This document shows, in pieces, positions 30,314 to 35,898 of a stretch of DNA of 64,000 bases. Under the pieces are notes generated by a model that had not been told where the DNA came from, ran no database searches, and saw nothing but the letters and a program-made list of their open reading frames with translations. Numbering within the stretch: the first letter of the stretch is position 1; the number at the start of each line of letters is the position of its first letter. The DNA comes from a bacterium (GTDB taxonomy: Bacteria; CLD3; SB21): assembly GCA_013360215.1 (NCBI GenBank), contig JABWCP010000002.1, positions 1 through 64,000 of the forward strand. The letters run 5' to 3'. The position numbers were made by a program, and so were the translations under genes.

Positions 30314-31327
30314 ATGCCGAGAATTTTCAGCGGAATGCGCCCGACAGGGAAATTGCATCTGGGACATTTGGTCGGAGCATTGGAAAATTGGGTCAAATTT
30401 CAGGACTCGTATCAAACCGTTTACGGCATTGTTGATTGGCATGCACTGACGACCGGCTACAAAGACACCGCTTCACTTCGAAACTACATACTCGAAACGG
30501 CTATTGATTGGATTTCCGCCGGTATCGATCCGCAAAAAAGTATTATCATGCAACAGTCCCGCGTCAAAGAACACGCGGAGCTGCATTTGCTTTTTTCGAT
30601 GATCACACCAACGCCTTGGTTGATCCGCAATCCCGCTGTCAAAGAACAAGCGCGCGATATGGGACTTATCGAAACGACGCAAGACGAACAAATGATGCGC
30701 ATTGATTTCGGCCATCTCGGGTATCCTGTTTTGCAAACTGCGGATATATTGGTATATCAAGCGGATACCGTACCCGTCGGTGAGGATCAGGTACCGCATA
30801 TCGAACTATGTCGTGAAATCGCACGCCGCTTCAATTTTTTATACAGCGCATCCGGTTTTCAGTTCCCGGAGCCCCAACACAAGTTGACGGTCACACCGCG
30901 GCTTCCGGGTATTGACGGTAACGCCAAAATGAGCAAAAGCCTCGGAAATTGTATTTATCTTTCTGATGATGACGCAACAATCGAATCGCAGGTGCGAAAA
31001 ATGGTCACCGATCCTCAAAAGCTGCGTAAAAATGATCCCGGCCGTCCGGAAGTTTGTTCGGTTTATAGCTATCACAAAGTGTTTAATACCGACGAAACGC
31101 AGGGCATTGCATTGGGATGTACAACCGGCGAATTGGGATGCGTCGCATGCAAAAAAAATCTTGGACAAAAACTATCTCAACGTTTAGAACCTATGCGCCA
31201 AAAACGCGCCGAATTGGTATCGGATCTCCATGCGGTCGAAAAAATAATATCCGAGGGCTCCGACAAAGCCCGTGCTATCGCGTCCGATACGATGGTTTCG
31301 GTTCGCCGAGCTATGAAACTTGATTAA
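30314..31327 (+). CDS. trpS: Tryptophanyl-tRNA synthetase
   Basis: SGMRPTGKLHLGH, YPVLQTADIL, VPVGEDQ, KMSKS. Confidence 0.97.
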   Translation: MPRIFSGMRPTGKLHLGHLVGALENWVKFQDSYQTVYGIVDWHALTTGYKDTASLRNYILETAIDWISAGIDPQKSIIMQQSRVKEHAELHLLFSMITPTPWLIRNPAVKEQARDMGLIETTQDEQMMRIDFGHLGYPVLQTADILVYQADTVPVGEDQVPHIELCREIARRFNFLYSASGFQFPEPQHKLTVTPRLPGIDGNAKMSKSLGNCIYLSDDDATIESQVRKMVTDPQKLRKNDPGRPEVCSVYSYHKVFNTDETQGIALGCTTGELGCVACKKNLGQKLSQRLEPMRQKRAELVSDLHAVEKIISEGSDKARAIASDTMVSVRRAMKLD

Positions 31328-31346
31328 CGCACGAAAGGAAAAAACT

Positions 31347-32786
31347 ATGCGTTACGTTTTGTTTTGGATACTCAGCATAAGTACACTGTGTGCGCAGGAT
31401 CAGATCCAACCGTACAAAGATTACGACAACGATTGGCTTTCACCGCAGTTTCACAAAGGACGTCGCGAGGCGTTGGCTCAGAAAATGAAACCCCACAGCA
31501 TCGCCGTGCTTTTTTCGTCGGAAGAACGCCTTCGCAGCAACGATACGTATTATCAATATAAACCCGAGAGCAATTTCTATTATCTGACCGGTTTCCGTGA
31601 ACCCAATGCGGCATTGATTTATTTGCCGGAGGGTTGGGTTGTCGGCGGAAAAACATATTCGACGGTTATGTTTGTGCCCAAACGAGATTACCGCTATGAA
31701 GTATATAACGGACGTCGCATGGGTACCGACGGCACACAGAAAATTCTCGGCATTGATACGGCGTTTACCAATGATGAATTCAGCACGCAGTTAAACAAAA
31801 TTTTACTCCAACAGCAGACTGCTTCGAAATTGGAAAATGTGTATTGTTTTAATTTACGTGAGCAATATGACACTAAGACGCTGCGTAACATGACGACGGC
31901 GTTTACGGATTTTCGTAATAATCCCCGAAGCCTTTTGGGATATATGAATTCGGCGGATTTTATCAATGTGGAACCGTTGATCGGCGAACTGCGTGCCGTA
32001 AAAACAGAAGAAGAAATCGTCTTACTTAAAAAATCCATTGAGATAACCAACGACGCCCATTTGCAAATGATGAAAAGCTGCGAACCGGGGCAAAAAGAGT
32101 TTGAAATCAAGGCGGTCGGTGAATATGTCTTTACGCGCCTGGGTGCGGAATACGAAGGTTATGGTAGTATCTGCGGTTCGGCCGAAAACAGTATTATTCT
32201 TCACTATACGACCGATCGTCGTCAAATGAAAGATGGTGACGTATTGCTCGTAGATATGGCCTCCGAATACCACGGTTATTCCGCCGATGTGACGCGTTCG
32301 TATCCGGTCAACGGCAAATTTACCAAAGAACAAGCCATCATTTACAATATCGTGCTCAAAGCTCAACAAGCCGGTATTGACCGCATTAAACCGAATGTAC
32401 CTTACCGTGAAGTAGCGGATGCCATTACCAAAACATTGGAAGATGGTCTTTTGGAAATCGGGTTGATTCAGGATCGCAAAGATGCAAAAAAATATACCGT
32501 GCACGGCTATATGCATTCGATCGGACTGGACGTACACGATCCGCAGTCGTATGACAGGCCGTTCGTTCCGGGTTTTTTTACGACGGTAGAACCGGGTATT
32601 TATATCCCTGAAAATGCACCGTGCGATAAAAAATGGTGGAATATCGGTATTCGCATCGAAGATGATATTTTGGTCACCGAAAGCGGCAATATCAATCTGT
32701 CTGAGCGTGTACCCCGCAAAATAGAAGACATCGAAAAACTTATGAAGAAAAAGGGTGTTGGTAATGTACCGTTGGATAATAATTGA
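31347..32786 (+). CDS. pepP: Xaa-Pro aminopeptidase (M24B) with signal peptide
   Basis: NFYYLTGF.EP, LHY, DMASEYHGYSADVTR, H.IGLDVHD, TVEPG, RIEDD; signal peptide from ATG 31347. Confidence 0.9.
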   Translation: MRYVLFWILSISTLCAQDQIQPYKDYDNDWLSPQFHKGRREALAQKMKPHSIAVLFSSEERLRSNDTYYQYKPESNFYYLTGFREPNAALIYLPEGWVVGGKTYSTVMFVPKRDYRYEVYNGRRMGTDGTQKILGIDTAFTNDEFSTQLNKILLQQQTASKLENVYCFNLREQYDTKTLRNMTTAFTDFRNNPRSLLGYMNSADFINVEPLIGELRAVKTEEEIVLLKKSIEITNDAHLQMMKSCEPGQKEFEIKAVGEYVFTRLGAEYEGYGSICGSAENSIILHYTTDRRQMKDGDVLLVDMASEYHGYSADVTRSYPVNGKFTKEQAIIYNIVLKAQQAGIDRIKPNVPYREVADAITKTLEDGLLEIGLIQDRKDAKKYTVHGYMHSIGLDVHDPQSYDRPFVPGFFTTVEPGIYIPENAPCDKKWWNIGIRIEDDILVTESGNINLSERVPRKIEDIEKLMKKKGVGNVPLDNN

Positions 32787-32795
32787 GGGCGCATC

Positions 32796-35069
32796 GTGTA
32801 TCGTGTAAAGTTAGAACAATTTGAAGGCCCTTTGGATTTATTGTTATTCTTCGTTCGTAAGGACGAACTGAATATATACGATATTCCTATCGCATACATC
32901 ACCAAGCAGTATCTCGAATACCTGCATTTGATGCGTACGCTCAATCTGGACATTGCGGGTGAGTTTATTCTGATGGCCGCTACGTTGATGCGTATCAAGG
33001 CCAAAATGATGTTACCACCGGATCCGACGACCGAAGAAGAAGAGGAACTGATCGATCCGCGCCAGGAATTATCACGCCGGCTTGTCGAATACCGCCAGTT
33101 TAAAGAAGCTTCCAAATCATTGGCCGAGCTGGATGAGTATTGGCGCTCCGTATATCGCCGGAGCTATTTCAATTTTGATCTGATCCCTCAGCAAACCGAA
33201 GAAGCTGTTGGTTTAAAAGATATCTCCTTTTTTGATCTTTTGACGGCTTATAAAAATGCAATGGCCAAAAAGCCGGCTGTCATTTATCACAACGTGGAAC
33301 GTCTCAATGTTACGGTCGAAGAACAGCAGGAATACATCATGGATTTTTTCCGTGATCGCAATATGTACACGTTTCTGGAACTCGTCGAGGATATGAGCAA
33401 GATTGAGGTGGTAGTTACATTTTTAGCCTTGCTGGATCTCGTTAAAAAAGGAGAAATCGCAGCACGCCAAACCACCCTTTTTGATGATATATGGATTTAC
33501 AAAGCGTCCGCATATACGGATGAAATTCCCGATGAGTTACGCGCCGACGAATCCGAAACGAAACAGCCGATACCTTTAAACGAAGAAACTGTTCTCACAC
33601 CGTCCGATGCGGCTGTGTTGAATGAAGTTTCATCTGACGATACAACGTTTGCGGTGAATGAATCCGAAGATACGGCTTTGGATTCGTCATTAACTGAGGC
33701 CGCCACATCGCCCGATAGCGAATTAGCAAACGACCGCATTGATATGGCGCAAACGGATGACCCGGTGCAAGAAGTCGAACAAGCCACAGTTGATATGAAT
33801 ATTGAGGGTGTTACCGATGAAGCGAAAACCGATGCGGAAACGGTTGGATTGAATGAAGAAATTATAAATAACGAAGCCTTCGTTGCGATTCCCCAAGTCG
33901 AAGAACAACCGCAAACGGAATATACAGATACTTCTGAGGCGTTTGCTGATTCCGAAAATGATGAAATTATAGACGCAACAGCCGAAGAAAATTTAAATTC
34001 ACTTTCAAATGAAAACATTCATTCAGTTGAAAAAACTCAATCGAATTTGTCTTCAGATGAAACAATATCTGTATCGGTGAATGAATCAACGGAAGCTGAT
34101 TTTTATACCCAAGTACCATCGGAAAATATTTCTTCCGCACAAAATCAGTCTGAAATAAGCCATGTTAAAACGGAAAATATTGATTCACACGGTGACGAGT
34201 TTTCAAACGAAGAAACGGAATCATTGGATCGTACAATAGTAAATGCAGCCGATGATACGATCGCAACGGATTTAACCGCCTCAATAACCGAAGTGACTGT
34301 TGATGAAAATGTAACCGATGATGCCGTTTTTTTAGCAACCACGACAGAAGACCAAACGATAACAGAGCCCGTTCCCGTCGAGCGTATCAGAACAGTAATC
34401 GCCGAATCGCAAGTCAATGTAAATAATTCTGATGCCGAATCGGTGGATACAATCACGGATAATGCGGCTCTATCAGACACTGAAGATAAAGTGATTGCGC
34501 CAACGAATGAGCTGATCGTTGCGACGGCTGAAACAAATGCAGACGATGTTGATCAAACACCATCGCAGGTTAGTTCAAACGAAATCGGCAATAATAGTAA
34601 AACAGATCAAACTGAATCAGATACGATAATACCAGTCGGGGAAGATGAACCCGCATTAATTCGCGCAAACGATGTTTCGACGACGGATATTCAAGCTATT
34701 CACGAAAATGAATTAACCTCCGAGGATGTGATTGAACGTGCTGCGTCGGAACCATCACAGAACACCGATCCTGTTCATATCATTGAGGCGATTCACAATC
34801 AAAACTATGAAACGATTCAACCGGATTTAGTAAAACCGCTCGTTTCACAAGACGAACCAAGAACTGATGGCGCGTCTGTTGTCTCAGCTAAAATGGAAGA
34901 TGATGCAAGCAAACCCTTGACTGAACAGCATGAAACCGCCGATGCGACTCTTAGCCGCACCGTAACAAACGGAGAAAAACCATCGCTTGATGAAATGGAA
35001 AAACCGTCTATTATAACGGTATTTGTTCGGAAAATAGTATCTTTTGTCAAACGTTTTTTTGGAAAATGA
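32796..35069 (+). CDS. scpA: Segregation and condensation protein A (kleisin) with ~520-aa acidic C-terminal extension
   Basis: FEGPLDLLL, IYDIPI..IT.QY, EFILMAATL..IKAKMMLP, DPRQEL, VVTFLALLDL...Q...FDDIWI; then a long D/E/T/S tail; followed by scpB. Confidence 0.93.
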   Translation: MYRVKLEQFEGPLDLLLFFVRKDELNIYDIPIAYITKQYLEYLHLMRTLNLDIAGEFILMAATLMRIKAKMMLPPDPTTEEEEELIDPRQELSRRLVEYRQFKEASKSLAELDEYWRSVYRRSYFNFDLIPQQTEEAVGLKDISFFDLLTAYKNAMAKKPAVIYHNVERLNVTVEEQQEYIMDFFRDRNMYTFLELVEDMSKIEVVVTFLALLDLVKKGEIAARQTTLFDDIWIYKASAYTDEIPDELRADESETKQPIPLNEETVLTPSDAAVLNEVSSDDTTFAVNESEDTALDSSLTEAATSPDSELANDRIDMAQTDDPVQEVEQATVDMNIEGVTDEAKTDAETVGLNEEIINNEAFVAIPQVEEQPQTEYTDTSEAFADSENDEIIDATAEENLNSLSNENIHSVEKTQSNLSSDETISVSVNESTEADFYTQVPSENISSAQNQSEISHVKTENIDSHGDEFSNEETESLDRTIVNAADDTIATDLTASITEVTVDENVTDDAVFLATTTEDQTITEPVPVERIRTVIAESQVNVNNSDAESVDTITDNAALSDTEDKVIAPTNELIVATAETNADDVDQTPSQVSSNEIGNNSKTDQTESDTIIPVGEDEPALIRANDVSTTDIQAIHENELTSEDVIERAASEPSQNTDPVHIIEAIHNQNYETIQPDLVKPLVSQDEPRTDGASVVSAKMEDDASKPLTEQHETADATLSRTVTNGEKPSLDEMEKPSIITVFVRKIVSFVKRFFGK

Positions 35070-35094
35070 TAGATGATAGGTTATTAAAAAGATT

Positions 35095-35898
35095 ATGGAA
35101 GAACAGAATCAAAACGAATCCAACTTGGAACCCACGGAAGTACAGATTGATACCGAGACATCGGAGGTCCCTGCGGATCCGCGTATTGTGGACGGATTGC
35201 CGCTTCAAAATGTAGTTGAGTCCATTATTTTTGCATCGACGGAACCTTTGCCGATGGATCGTCTTTTGGAGTGTATTCAAAAAGATTACGTTCAGGCTTC
35301 GTTAGTTCGACAAGTGATAGATGAGATCAATAAACATTATCAGGCCAACAATTTACCGTTGCGAATTATCAAAATCGCCGGCGGTTATCAATACGCCACC
35401 CATCCGCAGTATGACAAATGGGTTAGTCGACTTTTCAAATCAAAAGCGGAAAAAAAATTATCCCAATCTTCGCTCGAAGTGCTGGCAATTGTGGCGTATC
35501 GCCAACCAATTTCACGTGCGGAGATTGAACGTATCCGAGGGGTAAACGCCGATTGGACATTGCGTTCACTGATGGAAAAAAATTTAATCACGGTGGTGGG
35601 TCGTGAAGATGCACCGGGAAAACCTTTACTTTTCGGCACGACCAAGCCGTTCTTGGAGCATTTCGGTTTGGATGCCATCAATGAACTTCCCAAACTCAAA
35701 GAGATCGAAGACATCATCAAAGAAGATAAAGAGTTTGCCGAGACGCTGGAATTTGATTTTGCCGATAAAAAAGCGGCGGAAGCGGCGGCTAAAACGGCTG
35801 ACGAAACAGCGAAGAACGAAGGGCTGTCTCAAGAATTCGCTGAAATCGATACGATGCTTAAAGAAAATAATTTTAATCCCGAAGATCATTTGAAGTGA
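35095..35898 (+). CDS. scpB: SMC-Scp complex subunit ScpB
   Basis: ESIIFAS.EPL, AGGYQ, LSQSSLEVLAIVAYRQPISRAEIERIRGV, GKPLLFGTT..FL.HFGL. Confidence 0.96.
   Translation: MEEQNQNESNLEPTEVQIDTETSEVPADPRIVDGLPLQNVVESIIFASTEPLPMDRLLECIQKDYVQASLVRQVIDEINKHYQANNLPLRIIKIAGGYQYATHPQYDKWVSRLFKSKAEKKLSQSSLEVLAIVAYRQPISRAEIERIRGVNADWTLRSLMEKNLITVVGREDAPGKPLLFGTTKPFLEHFGLDAINELPKLKEIEDIIKEDKEFAETLEFDFADKKAAEAAAKTADETAKNEGLSQEFAEIDTMLKENNFNPEDHLK

What the first reader, a model, noticed from the sequence alone, without database searches (positions are those of the whole stretch)
32796..35069. ScpA kleisin with a ~520-aa acidic tether ending in a MinD-like membrane-targeting helix: possible membrane-anchored SMC
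Seen: a complete ScpA core ends near 33515 (...FDDIWIYK). It continues in frame for ~520 aa of D/E/T/S/N-rich sequence poor in aromatic and basic residues, then switches abruptly to KPSIITVFVRKIVSFVKRFFGK-stop (35001-35069). Known: ScpA is normally ~250 aa, and MinD binds membranes through a C-terminal amphipathic helix (E. coli ...KGFLKRLFGG). Inference: the kleisin carries a long flexible leash that would tie SMC-ScpAB loop extruders, and so the chromosome, to the inner membrane. I know of no described kleisin with this architecture.
Basis: partly seen in the sequence, partly recalled or inferred. Interest (0 to 1): 0.88.

Follow-up and report, generated by a model that had tools for sequence, protein, structure and literature searches.

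The report
Kleisin ScpA with membrane-anchor tail
The chromosome-organising protein ScpA of this uncultured bacterium carries a roughly 500-residue floppy acidic tail ending in a conserved helix of the kind that sticks proteins to membranes, so its SMC complex may be leashed to the cell membrane.

Summary
One ORF (32796-35069, +, 757 aa) encodes a full ScpA core (Pfam SMC_ScpA 22-234), a 499-residue acidic tail (net charge about -101) and an 18-residue cationic amphipathic helix at the exact C-terminus. scpB follows 25 nt downstream, and SMC and ParB lie elsewhere in the genome.

It is not a misassembly. Contigs from three other studies bridge the core/tail junction, and one spans the whole gene.

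The architecture is clade-wide. All 18 species genomes of the organism's order have a long ScpA frame. All 15 complete ones, and 35 of 35 long metagenomic orthologues, end in the same helix. Median pairwise identity is 77% for the core, 13% for the tail (163-497 aa) and 38% for the last 24 residues. Nine helix positions are hydrophobic in 40 of 40 sequences and lie on one 160-degree face flanked by Lys/Arg. AlphaFold2 gives a disordered tail and a confident terminal helix.

An unrelated marine Verrucomicrobiota clade (111 of 119 relatives) ends its ScpA in a true transmembrane tail anchor, so a kleisin C-terminal membrane element appears to have arisen independently there.

Four literature searches found no description of such a kleisin. 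Membrane binding itself is inferred, not shown. I rate this a new variant of a known kind, interest 0.75.

The parts
32796..35069 (+). scpA gene, 757 codons plus stop, GTG start
   Evidence: Only ScpA match in the 3.72-Mb genome. The exact protein was seen on 7 contigs.
32796..33503 (+). ScpA kleisin core, residues 1-236: N-terminal SMC-neck-binding domain, ScpB-binding middle and C-terminal winged helix
   Evidence: Pfam PF02616 residues 22-234. Matches solved ScpA chains 3w6j_A (E 4.9e-35), 3zgx_C, 4i98_A and 6ivh_A. Median pairwise identity 77% among 40 orthologues.
33504..33542 (+). Short semi-conserved stretch just after the winged helix, residues 237-249 (consensus A-x-E-F-x-E-E-x-x-P-x-x-E)
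   Evidence: These are the only tail columns with at least 60% one residue apart from scattered Glu. AF2 draws a short low-confidence helix at 246-253.
33504..35000 (+). Acidic, low-complexity, predicted disordered tail (leash), residues 237-735
   Evidence: Composition and net charge about -101. AF2 pLDDT is below 50 with no secondary structure over 250-735. No tandem DNA repeats. Median pairwise identity 13% and length 163-497 aa among orthologues. All but one of the 55-61 amino-acid differences of three strain variants fall here.
35007..35066 (+). Conserved Ser N-cap plus C-terminal cationic amphipathic helix, residues 738-757; putative membrane-targeting sequence
   Evidence: AF2 helix 739-756, block pLDDT 86 and 79. 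Hydrophobic moment 0.60, mean hydrophobicity 0.60, net charge +5. Nine columns are hydrophobic in 40 of 40 sequences on one 160-degree face. Unchanged in three strain variants.
35066..35079 (+). Tandem 7-nt duplication ATGATAG x2 overlapping the stop codon; one copy is missing in a strain variant and the stop is kept
   Evidence: 7 letters left out at 35066 in run X12; sequence.
35095..35898 (+). scpB, 267 aa, 25 nt downstream and co-directional
   Evidence: Pfam PF04079 residues 40-201, E 4.6e-53.

Best explanation
This is the single, functional ScpA kleisin of an SMC-ScpAB complex, and it has gained a C-terminal module of two parts.

Part 1 is a long polyanionic, intrinsically disordered linker whose sequence is free to drift. 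Only its acidic, hydrophobic-poor character and its reading frame are kept.

Part 2 is an 18-residue cationic amphipathic helix at the exact C-terminus. It would lie in the plane of the cytoplasmic face of the inner membrane, with its Phe/Ile/Val face buried and its flanking Lys/Arg on the anionic head groups.

So each SMC-ScpAB complex, and the DNA it holds, would be leashed to the membrane at a distance set by the linker. My own estimate from recalled polymer scaling constants is about 20 nm root-mean-square and under 190 nm contour length for 500 residues.

The anchor is peripheral, so it could slide in the membrane and should not stop translocation along DNA. With one helix per complex, attachment may be weak for single complexes and strong where complexes cluster.

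Shown: the gene, its domains, the partner genes, the disorder and helix predictions, the conservation pattern and the integrity of the assembly.

Inferred: complex formation (from family knowledge), lipid binding of the helix, and the consequence for the chromosome.
For: 1. Real gene. It is the only ScpA in the genome. scpB is adjacent. SMC is present (971 bits), as is ParB (177 bits).

2. Not an assembly artefact.
- In run X12 a single 8688-nt contig spans 32700-35200 with substitutions only, apart from a 7-nt indel that keeps the stop.
- Contigs of X5 (33019-33796, 0 differences) and X9 (32700-33587, 5 differences) bridge the junction.
- These runs come from three studies other than the possible source.
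- Three 757-aa strain variants exist.

3. Clade-wide and in frame.
- 18 of 18 genomes of the order have a long frame.
- 15 of 15 complete frames end in the helix; the other 2 are cut by contig ends.
- 35 of 35 long orthologues P0004-P0038 end in it.
- Large changes in tail length never break the frame.

4. Conservation contrast. Median pairwise identity is core 0.77, tail 0.13, last 24 aa 0.38. There are no conserved islands inside the tail.

5. Helix physics is conserved.
- Hydrophobic moment is 0.51-0.76 and net charge +4 to +7 in all 40 sequences.
- Nine columns are 100% hydrophobic within a 160-degree arc.
- Lys/Arg columns sit at the edges.
- Ser/Thr/Asn/Gly sit at the centre of the polar face.
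- There is a conserved Ser N-cap and almost no acidic residue.

6. Rarity in the genome.
- Only 4 of 3629 open frames of at least 150 aa have a C-terminus with moment >= 0.5, hydrophobicity >= 0.4 and charge >= +4. ScpA is the top one and the only one preceded by an acidic, hydrophobic-poor stretch.
- By C-terminal moment alone, ScpA ranks 23rd and the genome's own FtsA 24th of 3607. FtsA is a protein family known to use such a helix after an acidic linker.

7. AF2. The tail has pLDDT below 50 and no structure; the terminal helix has the highest confidence in the model.

8. Convergence. 111 of 119 relatives in a marine Verrucomicrobiota ScpA clade have core, linker and a 19-residue hydrophobic transmembrane stretch at the exact C-terminus.

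9. Precedent for chromosome-membrane bridging by C-terminal amphipathic helices: RocS (PMC11500499, passages read) and RicO (bioRxiv 10.64898/2026.03.06.710092, abstract and passages read).
Against: - No experiment or lipid-binding calculation was possible, so the membrane step is inference only.
- There is one ScpA, and so one helix, per SMC dimer. For RocS, and as that paper reports for MinD, a single copy of the helix did not hold GFP at the membrane (PMC11500499, passages read). This helix is longer and more hydrophobic, but its affinity is unknown.
- A tail of net charge about -100 would be repelled by an anionic membrane. It could also mask the cationic helix.
- Acidic C-terminal tails without any anchor occur on ScpAs of other lineages: P0067, P0110, P0145, P0207 and L110. 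So the tail may have a role unrelated to membranes.
- The peptide occurs on no other protein family, so it is not a shared, validated targeting module. In the own genome only ScpA matches (E 1.7e-7, next best 0.062). Among 5.8 billion proteins there were 15 hits: 14 ScpA and 1 fragment.
- RNA evidence is weak. RNA-library contigs cover only 13 of 30 bins, come from the study of a possible source sample, and may be DNA carry-over.
Confidence: 0.65

Rival explanations
1. The terminal helix is a short docking peptide for a protein partner rather than for lipid. Candidates are SMC, ScpB, ParB or a division or replication protein. The tail would be a flexible tether that recruits that partner to SMC, or SMC to it.
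For: The layout of folded core, long variable linker and conserved terminal peptide is also typical of protein-docking tails (established knowledge, for example the FtsZ and SSB C-terminal peptides; recalled). The helix is conserved in sequence as well as in polarity pattern: V751 and F755 are each identical in 93% of sequences.
Against: All nine hydrophobic positions freely exchange I/V/L/F/M/W, and the basic positions exchange K/R. That fits a physicochemical constraint better than a shaped interface. Half of the residues are hydrophobic on a 160-degree face with Lys/Arg at its edges, the pattern of in-plane lipid anchors. No partner is indicated by gene neighbourhood. The Verrucomicrobiota clade puts a plain transmembrane segment in the same position.
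Confidence: 0.17
2. The module acts within or between SMC complexes. Either the cationic helix folds back on the acidic tail or on the SMC/ScpAB core as an autoinhibitory switch, or helices of several kleisins bundle and cross-link complexes.
For: Opposite charges on the tail (about -100) and helix (+5 to +6). The hydrophobic pattern i, i+3, i+4, i+7 could also pack helix on helix. Kleisin-mediated dimerisation exists in MukBEF (recalled).
Against: Tail length varies three-fold (163-497 aa) and its sequence is unconstrained, which is unexpected for a defined intramolecular switch. Helices of +4 to +7 charge should repel each other.
Confidence: 0.08
3. The acidic tail is the functional element, acting as a DNA mimic or entropic bristle that modulates DNA access to the SMC heads. 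The terminal helix would be secondary, for example a degradation tag or a remnant.
For: Acidic tails without a terminal helix recur on ScpAs of several other lineages (P0067, P0110, P0145, P0207, L110). That shows an acidic tail alone can be retained.
Against: In this clade the helix is the conserved part and the tail the drifting part. The helix is unchanged in strain variants that differ at 55-61 tail positions. An 18-residue periodic amphipathic pattern kept in 40 of 40 sequences is far more than a degron needs.
Confidence: 0.07
4. Artefact: a misassembly, a read-through of two genes, or a non-coding stretch that happens to be open.
For: None found. The low-complexity composition and the long antisense open frames (173 and 111 aa) were the only grounds for suspicion.
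Against: Independent contigs of three studies bridge the junction and one spans the gene. 521 codons follow the core without a stop. In-frame conservation of the terminal helix holds in 15 of 15 complete genomic and 35 of 35 metagenomic orthologues despite three-fold length variation. There are no tandem repeats.
Confidence: 0.01

Closest known systems
Canonical bacterial ScpA kleisin of SMC-ScpAB (for example Bacillus/Geobacillus/Streptococcus ScpA; solved chains 3w6j_A, 3zgx_C, 4i98_A)
   Same: Full-length Pfam SMC_ScpA core. Sequence match to solved ScpA chains. scpB lies immediately downstream. SMC and ParB are in the genome. Single copy.
   Different: It is three times longer. A 499-residue acidic disordered tail and a conserved terminal amphipathic helix are appended after the winged helix. 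77 of the 80 nearest ScpAs of other lineages stop at 226-261 aa.
C-terminal membrane-targeting amphipathic helices of MinD and FtsA
   Same: It sits at the extreme C-terminus, is cationic, has helical periodicity and is preceded by a flexible acidic linker, as in this genome's own FtsA. Its C-terminal hydrophobic moment is comparable to that FtsA's (ranks 23 and 24 of 3607).
   Different: The host protein is a kleisin, not an ATPase or actin homologue. The helix is longer and more hydrophobic than the 11-residue MinD/RocS peptide aligned in PMC11500499 (passages read). The linker is 10 to 50 times longer. No sequence homology was tested, and the genome has no MinD over the cut-off.
RocS (Streptococcus pneumoniae) and RicO (Staphylococcus aureus): chromosome-membrane bridges with an N-terminal DNA-binding domain and a C-terminal amphipathic helix
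   Same: The proposed outcome is the same: DNA held near the membrane through a C-terminal amphipathic helix, acting in chromosome segregation alongside SMC (PMC11500499; bioRxiv 10.64898/2026.03.06.710092; abstracts and passages read).
   Different: Those proteins bind DNA directly and are separate from SMC; RicO is synthetically sick with a scpAB deletion. Here the helix is on the SMC complex's own kleisin, so the tethered object would be the loop-extruding motor. They are not homologous.
Tail-anchored ScpA of marine Verrucomicrobiota
   Same: ScpA core, a disordered acidic linker of 130-180 aa, and a membrane element at the exact C-terminus.
   Different: The anchor is a 19-20-residue fully hydrophobic transmembrane segment after a conserved ...PT[KR]DR motif, not an amphipathic helix. 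The linker is shorter and the phylum is different. I found no description of it in print.
Noc (Bacillus subtilis ParB paralogue with an N-terminal amphipathic helix)
   Same: A chromosome-bound protein that recruits DNA to the membrane through an amphipathic helix. This is recalled; only a search listing mentioning Noc was seen (PMC6852036).
   Different: The helix is N-terminal and the protein is a DNA-binding ParB fold with a nucleoid-occlusion role. It is not part of SMC.

Membership tests
ScpA kleisin (Pfam PF02616 SMC_ScpA) | Match to the family profile above the gathering score over nearly its whole length | tested here: met
   132.6 bits against a cut-off of 24.6; profile positions 4-229 of 232.
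ScpA kleisin (Pfam PF02616 SMC_ScpA) | Sequence similarity to experimentally solved ScpA chains, including the SMC-binding N-domain and the ScpB-binding region | tested here: met
   3w6j_A E 4.9e-35; 3zgx_C E 4.1e-25; 4i98_A E 1.4e-22.
ScpA kleisin (Pfam PF02616 SMC_ScpA) | Partner genes present: scpB adjacent, smc in the genome | tested here: met
   scpB at 35095-35898. SMC_prok_B scores 971.3 bits against a cut-off of 567 on contig C21.
ScpA kleisin (Pfam PF02616 SMC_ScpA) | Physical bridging of the SMC neck and cap, and binding of an ScpB dimer | not testable with these tools
   Inferred from homology only.
Terminal amphipathic membrane-targeting helix (MinD/FtsA type; a functional class, not a homology family) | Located at the extreme terminus of a cytoplasmic protein, outside the folded domain | tested here: met
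   Residues 739-756 of 757, after 499 residues with pLDDT below 50.
Terminal amphipathic membrane-targeting helix (MinD/FtsA type; a functional class, not a homology family) | Helical amphipathicity with one hydrophobic face, conserved across orthologues | tested here: met
   Moment 0.60, reached by 94 of 20000 shuffles. Moment 0.51-0.76 in 40 of 40 orthologues. Nine columns are 100% hydrophobic within a 160-degree arc.
Terminal amphipathic membrane-targeting helix (MinD/FtsA type; a functional class, not a homology family) | Net positive charge with basic residues at the polar/non-polar boundary | tested here: met
   Net charge +4 to +7. The K/R columns sit at 100, 120, 220, 240 and 260 degrees.
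Terminal amphipathic membrane-targeting helix (MinD/FtsA type; a functional class, not a homology family) | Binds lipid bilayers and localises a reporter to the membrane | not testable with these tools
   Needs a GFP fusion and a liposome assay.
Terminal amphipathic membrane-targeting helix (MinD/FtsA type; a functional class, not a homology family) | Sequence relatedness to the MinD peptide itself | not tested
   No MinD sequence was in hand, and the genome has no MinD above the cut-off. The profile of the peptide found only ScpAs.
RocS/RicO-type DNA-membrane bridge | Own sequence-specific or non-specific DNA-binding domain plus a C-terminal amphipathic helix | tested here: not met
   Pfam finds no domain other than SMC_ScpA. 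DNA contact would be through SMC. It therefore works like these proteins at most, and is not a member.

The most novel reading that the evidence does not exclude
SMC-ScpAB, the bacterial loop-extruding motor, is physically leashed to the cytoplasmic membrane through its kleisin. This has evolved at least twice. In nearly all known species of a small candidate phylum it uses a peripheral amphipathic helix on a 160-500-residue polyanionic leash. In a large marine Verrucomicrobiota clade it uses a transmembrane tail anchor. Membrane-coupled loop extrusion would be a previously unrecognised way of positioning or segregating bacterial chromosomes.
Probability: 0.55. Interest if true: 0.85.

Novelty: new variant of a known kind. 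Interest (0 to 1): 0.75.

Why it matters
Bacterial SMC complexes are treated as soluble, DNA-bound motors. Links between chromosome and membrane are ascribed to separate proteins (RocS, RicO, Noc, RacA/DivIVA) or to coupled transcription, translation and insertion.

A kleisin that carries its own membrane anchor would mean the motor itself is membrane-coupled. That would affect where loop extrusion happens, how the juxtaposed chromosome arms are placed in the cell, and how segregation is driven.

The idea is directly testable with simple reporter and liposome assays on a 20-residue peptide. The independent transmembrane version in abundant marine Verrucomicrobiota suggests it is not a curiosity of one uncultured lineage.

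The tail is also a clean natural example of a linker under selection for length class, charge and reading frame but not for sequence.

Tried and rejected
- **Complex prediction, four copies of the last 40 residues** (alignment A3). Verdict 'no answer' (score 0.02, mark 0.42, controls not folded). It counts neither for nor against self-association.
- **The protein-atlas search on residues 700-757**. No usable hit.
- **Profile of the terminal 40 residues against PDB sequences**. One chance-level hit (a ribosomal protein, E 0.21).
- **Terminal-peptide profile against all open frames of the own genome** and against 5.8 billion proteins of more than 70 aa. Only ScpAs and one 81-aa fragment of the same protein were found, so there is no evidence that the peptide is a shared module. 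The tool warns that finding none is weak evidence.
- **Tandem Repeats Finder on 33400-35100**. No rows, so the tail did not grow by recent tandem duplication.
- **HeliQuest-style discrimination factor** (formula recalled). It is dominated by charge; lysine-rich tails top the list. I dropped it in favour of a joint moment, hydrophobicity and charge filter.
- **The search of earlier findings near the locus**. Nothing.
- It failed because the query alignment was 30 aa and the minimum is 40. I repeated it with 40 aa.
- **RNA-library run X17**. Contigs cover parts of the core and tail, but the tool warns this does not show transcription. I do not use it as evidence of expression. Parts without cover in X9 and X17 mean nothing.
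- **Naming the phylum.** The nearest named records are only labelled 'Bacteroidota bacterium' or 'bacterium', so I left it unnamed.
- **Literature.** Four searches for a kleisin or ScpA with a membrane-targeting sequence, amphipathic helix, C-terminal extension or transmembrane anchor found nothing relevant. Subscription journals and supplements were not searchable.
Full report
**1. The observation**

The window holds one open reading frame at 32796-35069 on the + strand, 757 codons. It starts at GTG, the first possible start in a frame that opens at 32787. Pfam SMC_ScpA matches residues 22-234 over 226 of 232 profile positions (E 2.9e-38, 132.6 bits, cut-off 24.6). The first 245 residues match solved ScpA chains (3w6j_A E 4.9e-35, 3zgx_C, 4i98_A, 6ivh_A).

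The frame runs on for 521 residues.

Tail residues 237-735 are 24% Asp+Glu, 21% Ser+Thr, 2% aromatic and 3.8% Lys+Arg, with net charge about -101. The last 22 residues have net charge +6 and no acidic residue.

The last 18 residues have the largest helical hydrophobic moment in the protein (0.60 on the Fauchere-Pliska scale). 94 of 20000 shuffles of the same residues reach it. There are no tandem repeats in the tail DNA.

**2. Context**

The gene sits in a co-directional row: trpS (30314-31327), an M24 Xaa-Pro aminopeptidase (31320-32786), scpA, scpB (35095-35898, Pfam SMC_ScpB E 4.6e-53), a weak GRDB-like ORF, a pseudouridine-synthase-like ORF and a cytidylate-kinase-like ORF. The last two names are my reading of the translations and were not searched.

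The genome is 3.72 Mb in 56 contigs and 100% complete by markers.
- It has this one ScpA.
- It has one SMC (971 bits against a cut-off of 567).
- It has ParB next to a ParA-like gene.
- It has FtsA.
- It has no MinD above the family cut-off (best 76.1 against 212.9 bits).

**3. Is the assembly right?**

Logan contigs of four runs were laid on 32700-35200.
- X12 (a bioreactor metagenome from another study) has one 8688-nt contig across the whole stretch. It shows 97 substitutions and a single indel, which removes one copy of a 7-nt tandem duplicate (ATGATAG x2 at 35066-35079) and leaves the stop in place.
- X5 and X9 (two further studies) have contigs across the core/tail junction: 33019-33796 with 0 differences and 32700-33587 with 5 differences.
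- The identical 757-aa protein was recorded on 7 contigs, and three 757-aa strain variants exist.

So there is no stop, frameshift or chimeric join after the core.

An RNA-library run (X17, from the study of a possible source sample) has small contigs on the core and on two parts of the tail. The tool warns that this does not prove transcription.

**4. Relatives**

The organism's phylum, as held here, has only 20 species genomes, and 18 of them form its order.
- All 18 have a long ScpA open frame (393-760 aa).
- Of the 17 relatives, 15 frames are complete and all 15 end in the same kind of helix. The other two (L014, L020) run off contig ends.
- The two genomes of the other family (both 100% complete) have no SMC, ScpA or ScpB match at all.

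A search of 5.8 billion proteins of 416-1325 aa found 67 hits.
- P0004-P0038 (35 proteins, 425-680 aa) all end in the helix.
- P0003 is a C-terminally partial copy.
- P0039-P0068 (30 long or fused ScpAs of other lineages) do not end in it.

Outside the order:
- 12 of 12 ScpAs fetched are 233-261 aa measured from the core start.
- 77 of the 80 best ScpA loci from the species-representative genomes are 226-261 aa. These are Ignavibacteria, Melioribacteraceae, Balneolales, KSB1 and others.
- The three exceptions are two members of the same clade (L031 with the helix, L032 cut by the contig end) and one Chlorobiota MAG with a 132-residue poly-acidic tail and no helix (L110).

**5. Conservation pattern**

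I compared 40 non-identical orthologues; some are near-duplicates.
- The tail is 163-497 residues, median 275. The window's is the longest.
- The tail is always acidic: 22-32% Asp+Glu, 3-10% Lys+Arg, net charge -35 to -101.
- Median pairwise identity is 0.77 in the core, 0.13 in the tail and 0.38 in the last 24 residues.
- No conserved island exists in the tail except the first dozen residues after the winged helix.
- The terminal motif reads S-x-[IWF]-[KR]-x-F-[FLI]-x-[KR]-[IV]-[VI]-[ST]-[FMI]-V-[KR]-[KR]-[IL]-F-x-[KR].
- Nine columns are hydrophobic in 40 of 40 sequences and fall within a 160-degree arc of a helical wheel.
- The five Lys/Arg columns lie at the two edges of that arc (100, 120, 220, 240, 260 degrees).
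- The centre of the polar face is Ser/Thr/Asn/Gly.
- The helix is preceded by a conserved Ser (88% small polar), often followed by Pro, which reads as an N-cap.
- Hydrophobic moment is 0.51-0.76 and net charge +4 to +7 in every sequence.
- Substitutions exchange I/V/L/F/M/W and K/R freely. What is conserved is the physical pattern.

Three strain variants of the window's own protein differ from it at 55-61 positions. All lie in the tail except one in the core, and none lies in the last 22 residues.

**6. Structure prediction**

AlphaFold2 with the 29-sequence alignment gives pLDDT below 50 and no secondary structure for 250-735. It gives a helix at 739-756 whose 10-residue blocks score 86 and 79, the highest in the model. 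The winged-helix part of the core scores 75-81. The overall mean is low (46.9), as expected for a kleisin modelled without SMC and with a 500-residue disordered region.

**7. How unusual is the C-terminus within the genome?**

Among stop-terminated open frames of at least 150 aa, ScpA ranks 23rd of 3607 by C-terminal hydrophobic moment. The genome's FtsA ranks 24th. FtsA belongs to a family known to attach to membranes by such a helix, and here it also has an acidic linker before it.

Most other high-moment C-termini belong to the last helix of folded domains. I then required a moment of at least 0.5, mean hydrophobicity of at least 0.4 and charge of at least +4. That leaves 4 of 3629 frames. 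ScpA is the top one and the only one preceded by an acidic, hydrophobic-poor stretch.

**8. A second, independent case**

While listing long ScpAs I saw that P0050 (442 aa) ends in 20 hydrophobic residues. Its nearest representative P0070 (392 aa) has the following features.
- It has SMC_ScpA at 21-241 (E 5.2e-39).
- It belongs to a 21-member cluster whose named members are marine Verrucomicrobiales or Verrucomicrobiota MAGs, apart from one labelled Euryarchaeota archaeon.
- It ends in a 19-residue stretch with mean Kyte-Doolittle hydropathy 3.06.

Of the 119 proteins analysed from P0070's search listing, 111 (379-405 aa) end in a conserved ...PT[KR]DR motif followed by about 19 hydrophobic residues at the exact C-terminus. 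The 8 without it are shorter fragments or more distant ScpAs.

This is the signature of a transmembrane tail anchor. So a different phylum has built the same layout (ScpA core, disordered linker, C-terminal membrane element) with an unambiguous membrane segment. I count this as the strongest indirect support for reading the window's helix as a membrane anchor.

**9. Mechanism proposed**

- Shown: the domains, the partner genes, the disorder and helix predictions, the conservation pattern and the assembly.
- From family knowledge: the ScpA N-domain binds the neck of one SMC, the C-terminal winged helix binds the cap of the other head, and the middle binds an ScpB dimer. A C-terminal extension therefore leaves from the head-cap side.
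- Inferred: the polyanionic tail behaves as an expanded, DNA-repelled and membrane-repelled leash. My own estimate from recalled polymer scaling is about 20 nm root-mean-square end-to-end for 500 residues, with a contour below 190 nm.
- Inferred: the terminal helix folds on the cytoplasmic leaflet, with its aromatic and aliphatic face inserted and Lys/Arg snorkelling to the anionic head groups.
- Inferred: the SMC complex and its DNA are thereby kept near the membrane, and the peripheral anchor can diffuse laterally as the motor moves.

For RocS, and as that paper reports for MinD, a single copy of the helix did not hold GFP at the membrane while two did (PMC11500499, passages read). With one ScpA per SMC dimer, attachment here may depend on avidity. 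It could be strongest where complexes accumulate, for example near ParB loading sites. That last point is speculation.

**10. Rivals**

- **A protein-docking peptide (0.17).** The layout fits. However, the free exchange among hydrophobic residues, the broad hydrophobic face and the transmembrane analogue argue for lipid.
- **A fold-back switch or helix bundling between complexes (0.08).** The charges are opposite, but tail length and sequence are unconstrained and the helices are strongly cationic.
- **The acidic tail as the main actor with an incidental helix (0.07).** Acidic tails without anchors do occur elsewhere. In this clade, though, the helix is the conserved element.
- **Artefact (0.01).** Contradicted.

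**11. Comparison with what is known**

By every sequence test the protein is a member of the ScpA family. It is not a member of MinD, FtsA, RocS, RicO or Noc. It would work like their membrane-targeting helices, and like RocS and RicO as a DNA-membrane bridge, with the difference that the tethered object is the SMC motor itself.

Full-text searches of 8.1 million PMC papers and 0.36 million preprints found no paper describing a kleisin with a membrane anchor. The searches were:
- ScpA + amphipathic helix + membrane;
- kleisin + membrane targeting sequence (0 papers);
- ScpA + C-terminal extension + disordered + SMC (0 papers);
- kleisin + amphipathic + membrane + bacteria (3 papers, none on this);
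- ScpA + transmembrane + SMC + membrane-anchored (none relevant).

Subscription-only papers and supplementary files were not searchable.

**12. Verdict**

I rate it a new variant of a known kind, with 0.65 confidence in the membrane-leash reading and interest 0.75.

Noticed in passing
Proteins P0050 and P0070 and 110 further relatives (not in the window): A large clade of marine Verrucomicrobiota ScpAs (379-405 aa) ends in a conserved ...PT[KR]DR motif plus about 19 hydrophobic residues at the exact C-terminus. This reads as a tail-anchored kleisin. 111 of 119 nearest relatives have it.
   Followed up: partly
window 33504-35000 (tail of scpA): The tail is hypervariable within the population. 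Strain variants P0234-P0236 differ at 55-61 residues, all but one in the tail. In the X12 contig, 38 of the 40 listed nucleotide differences lie in 33506-33982 and only 2 in the 708-nt core; 59 further differences were not listed. The tail is far more diverged than even the synonymous sites of the core would predict. That suggests an imported divergent allele, diversifying selection or local hypermutability.
   Followed up: partly
Genomes G018 and G019 (the other family of the same phylum): Both are 100% complete by markers yet have no match to SMC (best 28 bits against a cut-off of 567), ScpA or ScpB. The whole SMC-ScpAB system seems to be missing there. Whether a MukBEF or MksBEF system replaces it was not checked.
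   Followed up: partly
Proteins P0067, P0110, P0145, P0207 and locus L110: ScpAs of several other lineages carry poly-Asp/Glu C-terminal tails of 60-300 residues with no terminal helix or anchor. Acidic kleisin tails therefore recur and may have a role of their own.
   Followed up: no
window 35066-35079: A tandem 7-nt duplication (ATGATAG x2) overlaps the scpA stop codon. One copy is absent in a strain variant, with no change to the protein.
   Followed up: yes
window 35095-35898 (scpB): ScpB is 267 aa, with about 39 extra N-terminal and about 66 extra C-terminal charged residues around the Pfam domain at 40-201. Relatives G008 and G017 have ScpB frames of 253 and 244 aa.
   Followed up: no
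Genome contig C4:35096-36433 (FtsA, outside the window): FtsA ends in an acidic Pro/Gly/Asp/Glu-rich linker followed by an amphipathic, basic C-terminal stretch. This is the classical membrane-targeting layout and served as an internal comparator. The genome has no MinD above the cut-off.
   Followed up: partly
Proteins P0057, P0059, P0065, P0068 and P0041, P0048 (not in the window): Some database entries fuse ScpA with tRNA-synthetase class I (W/Y), a poly(A) polymerase head or a purine-synthesis domain. The trpS fusions mirror the trpS...scpA neighbourhood seen in the window and may be gene-calling read-throughs.
   Followed up: no
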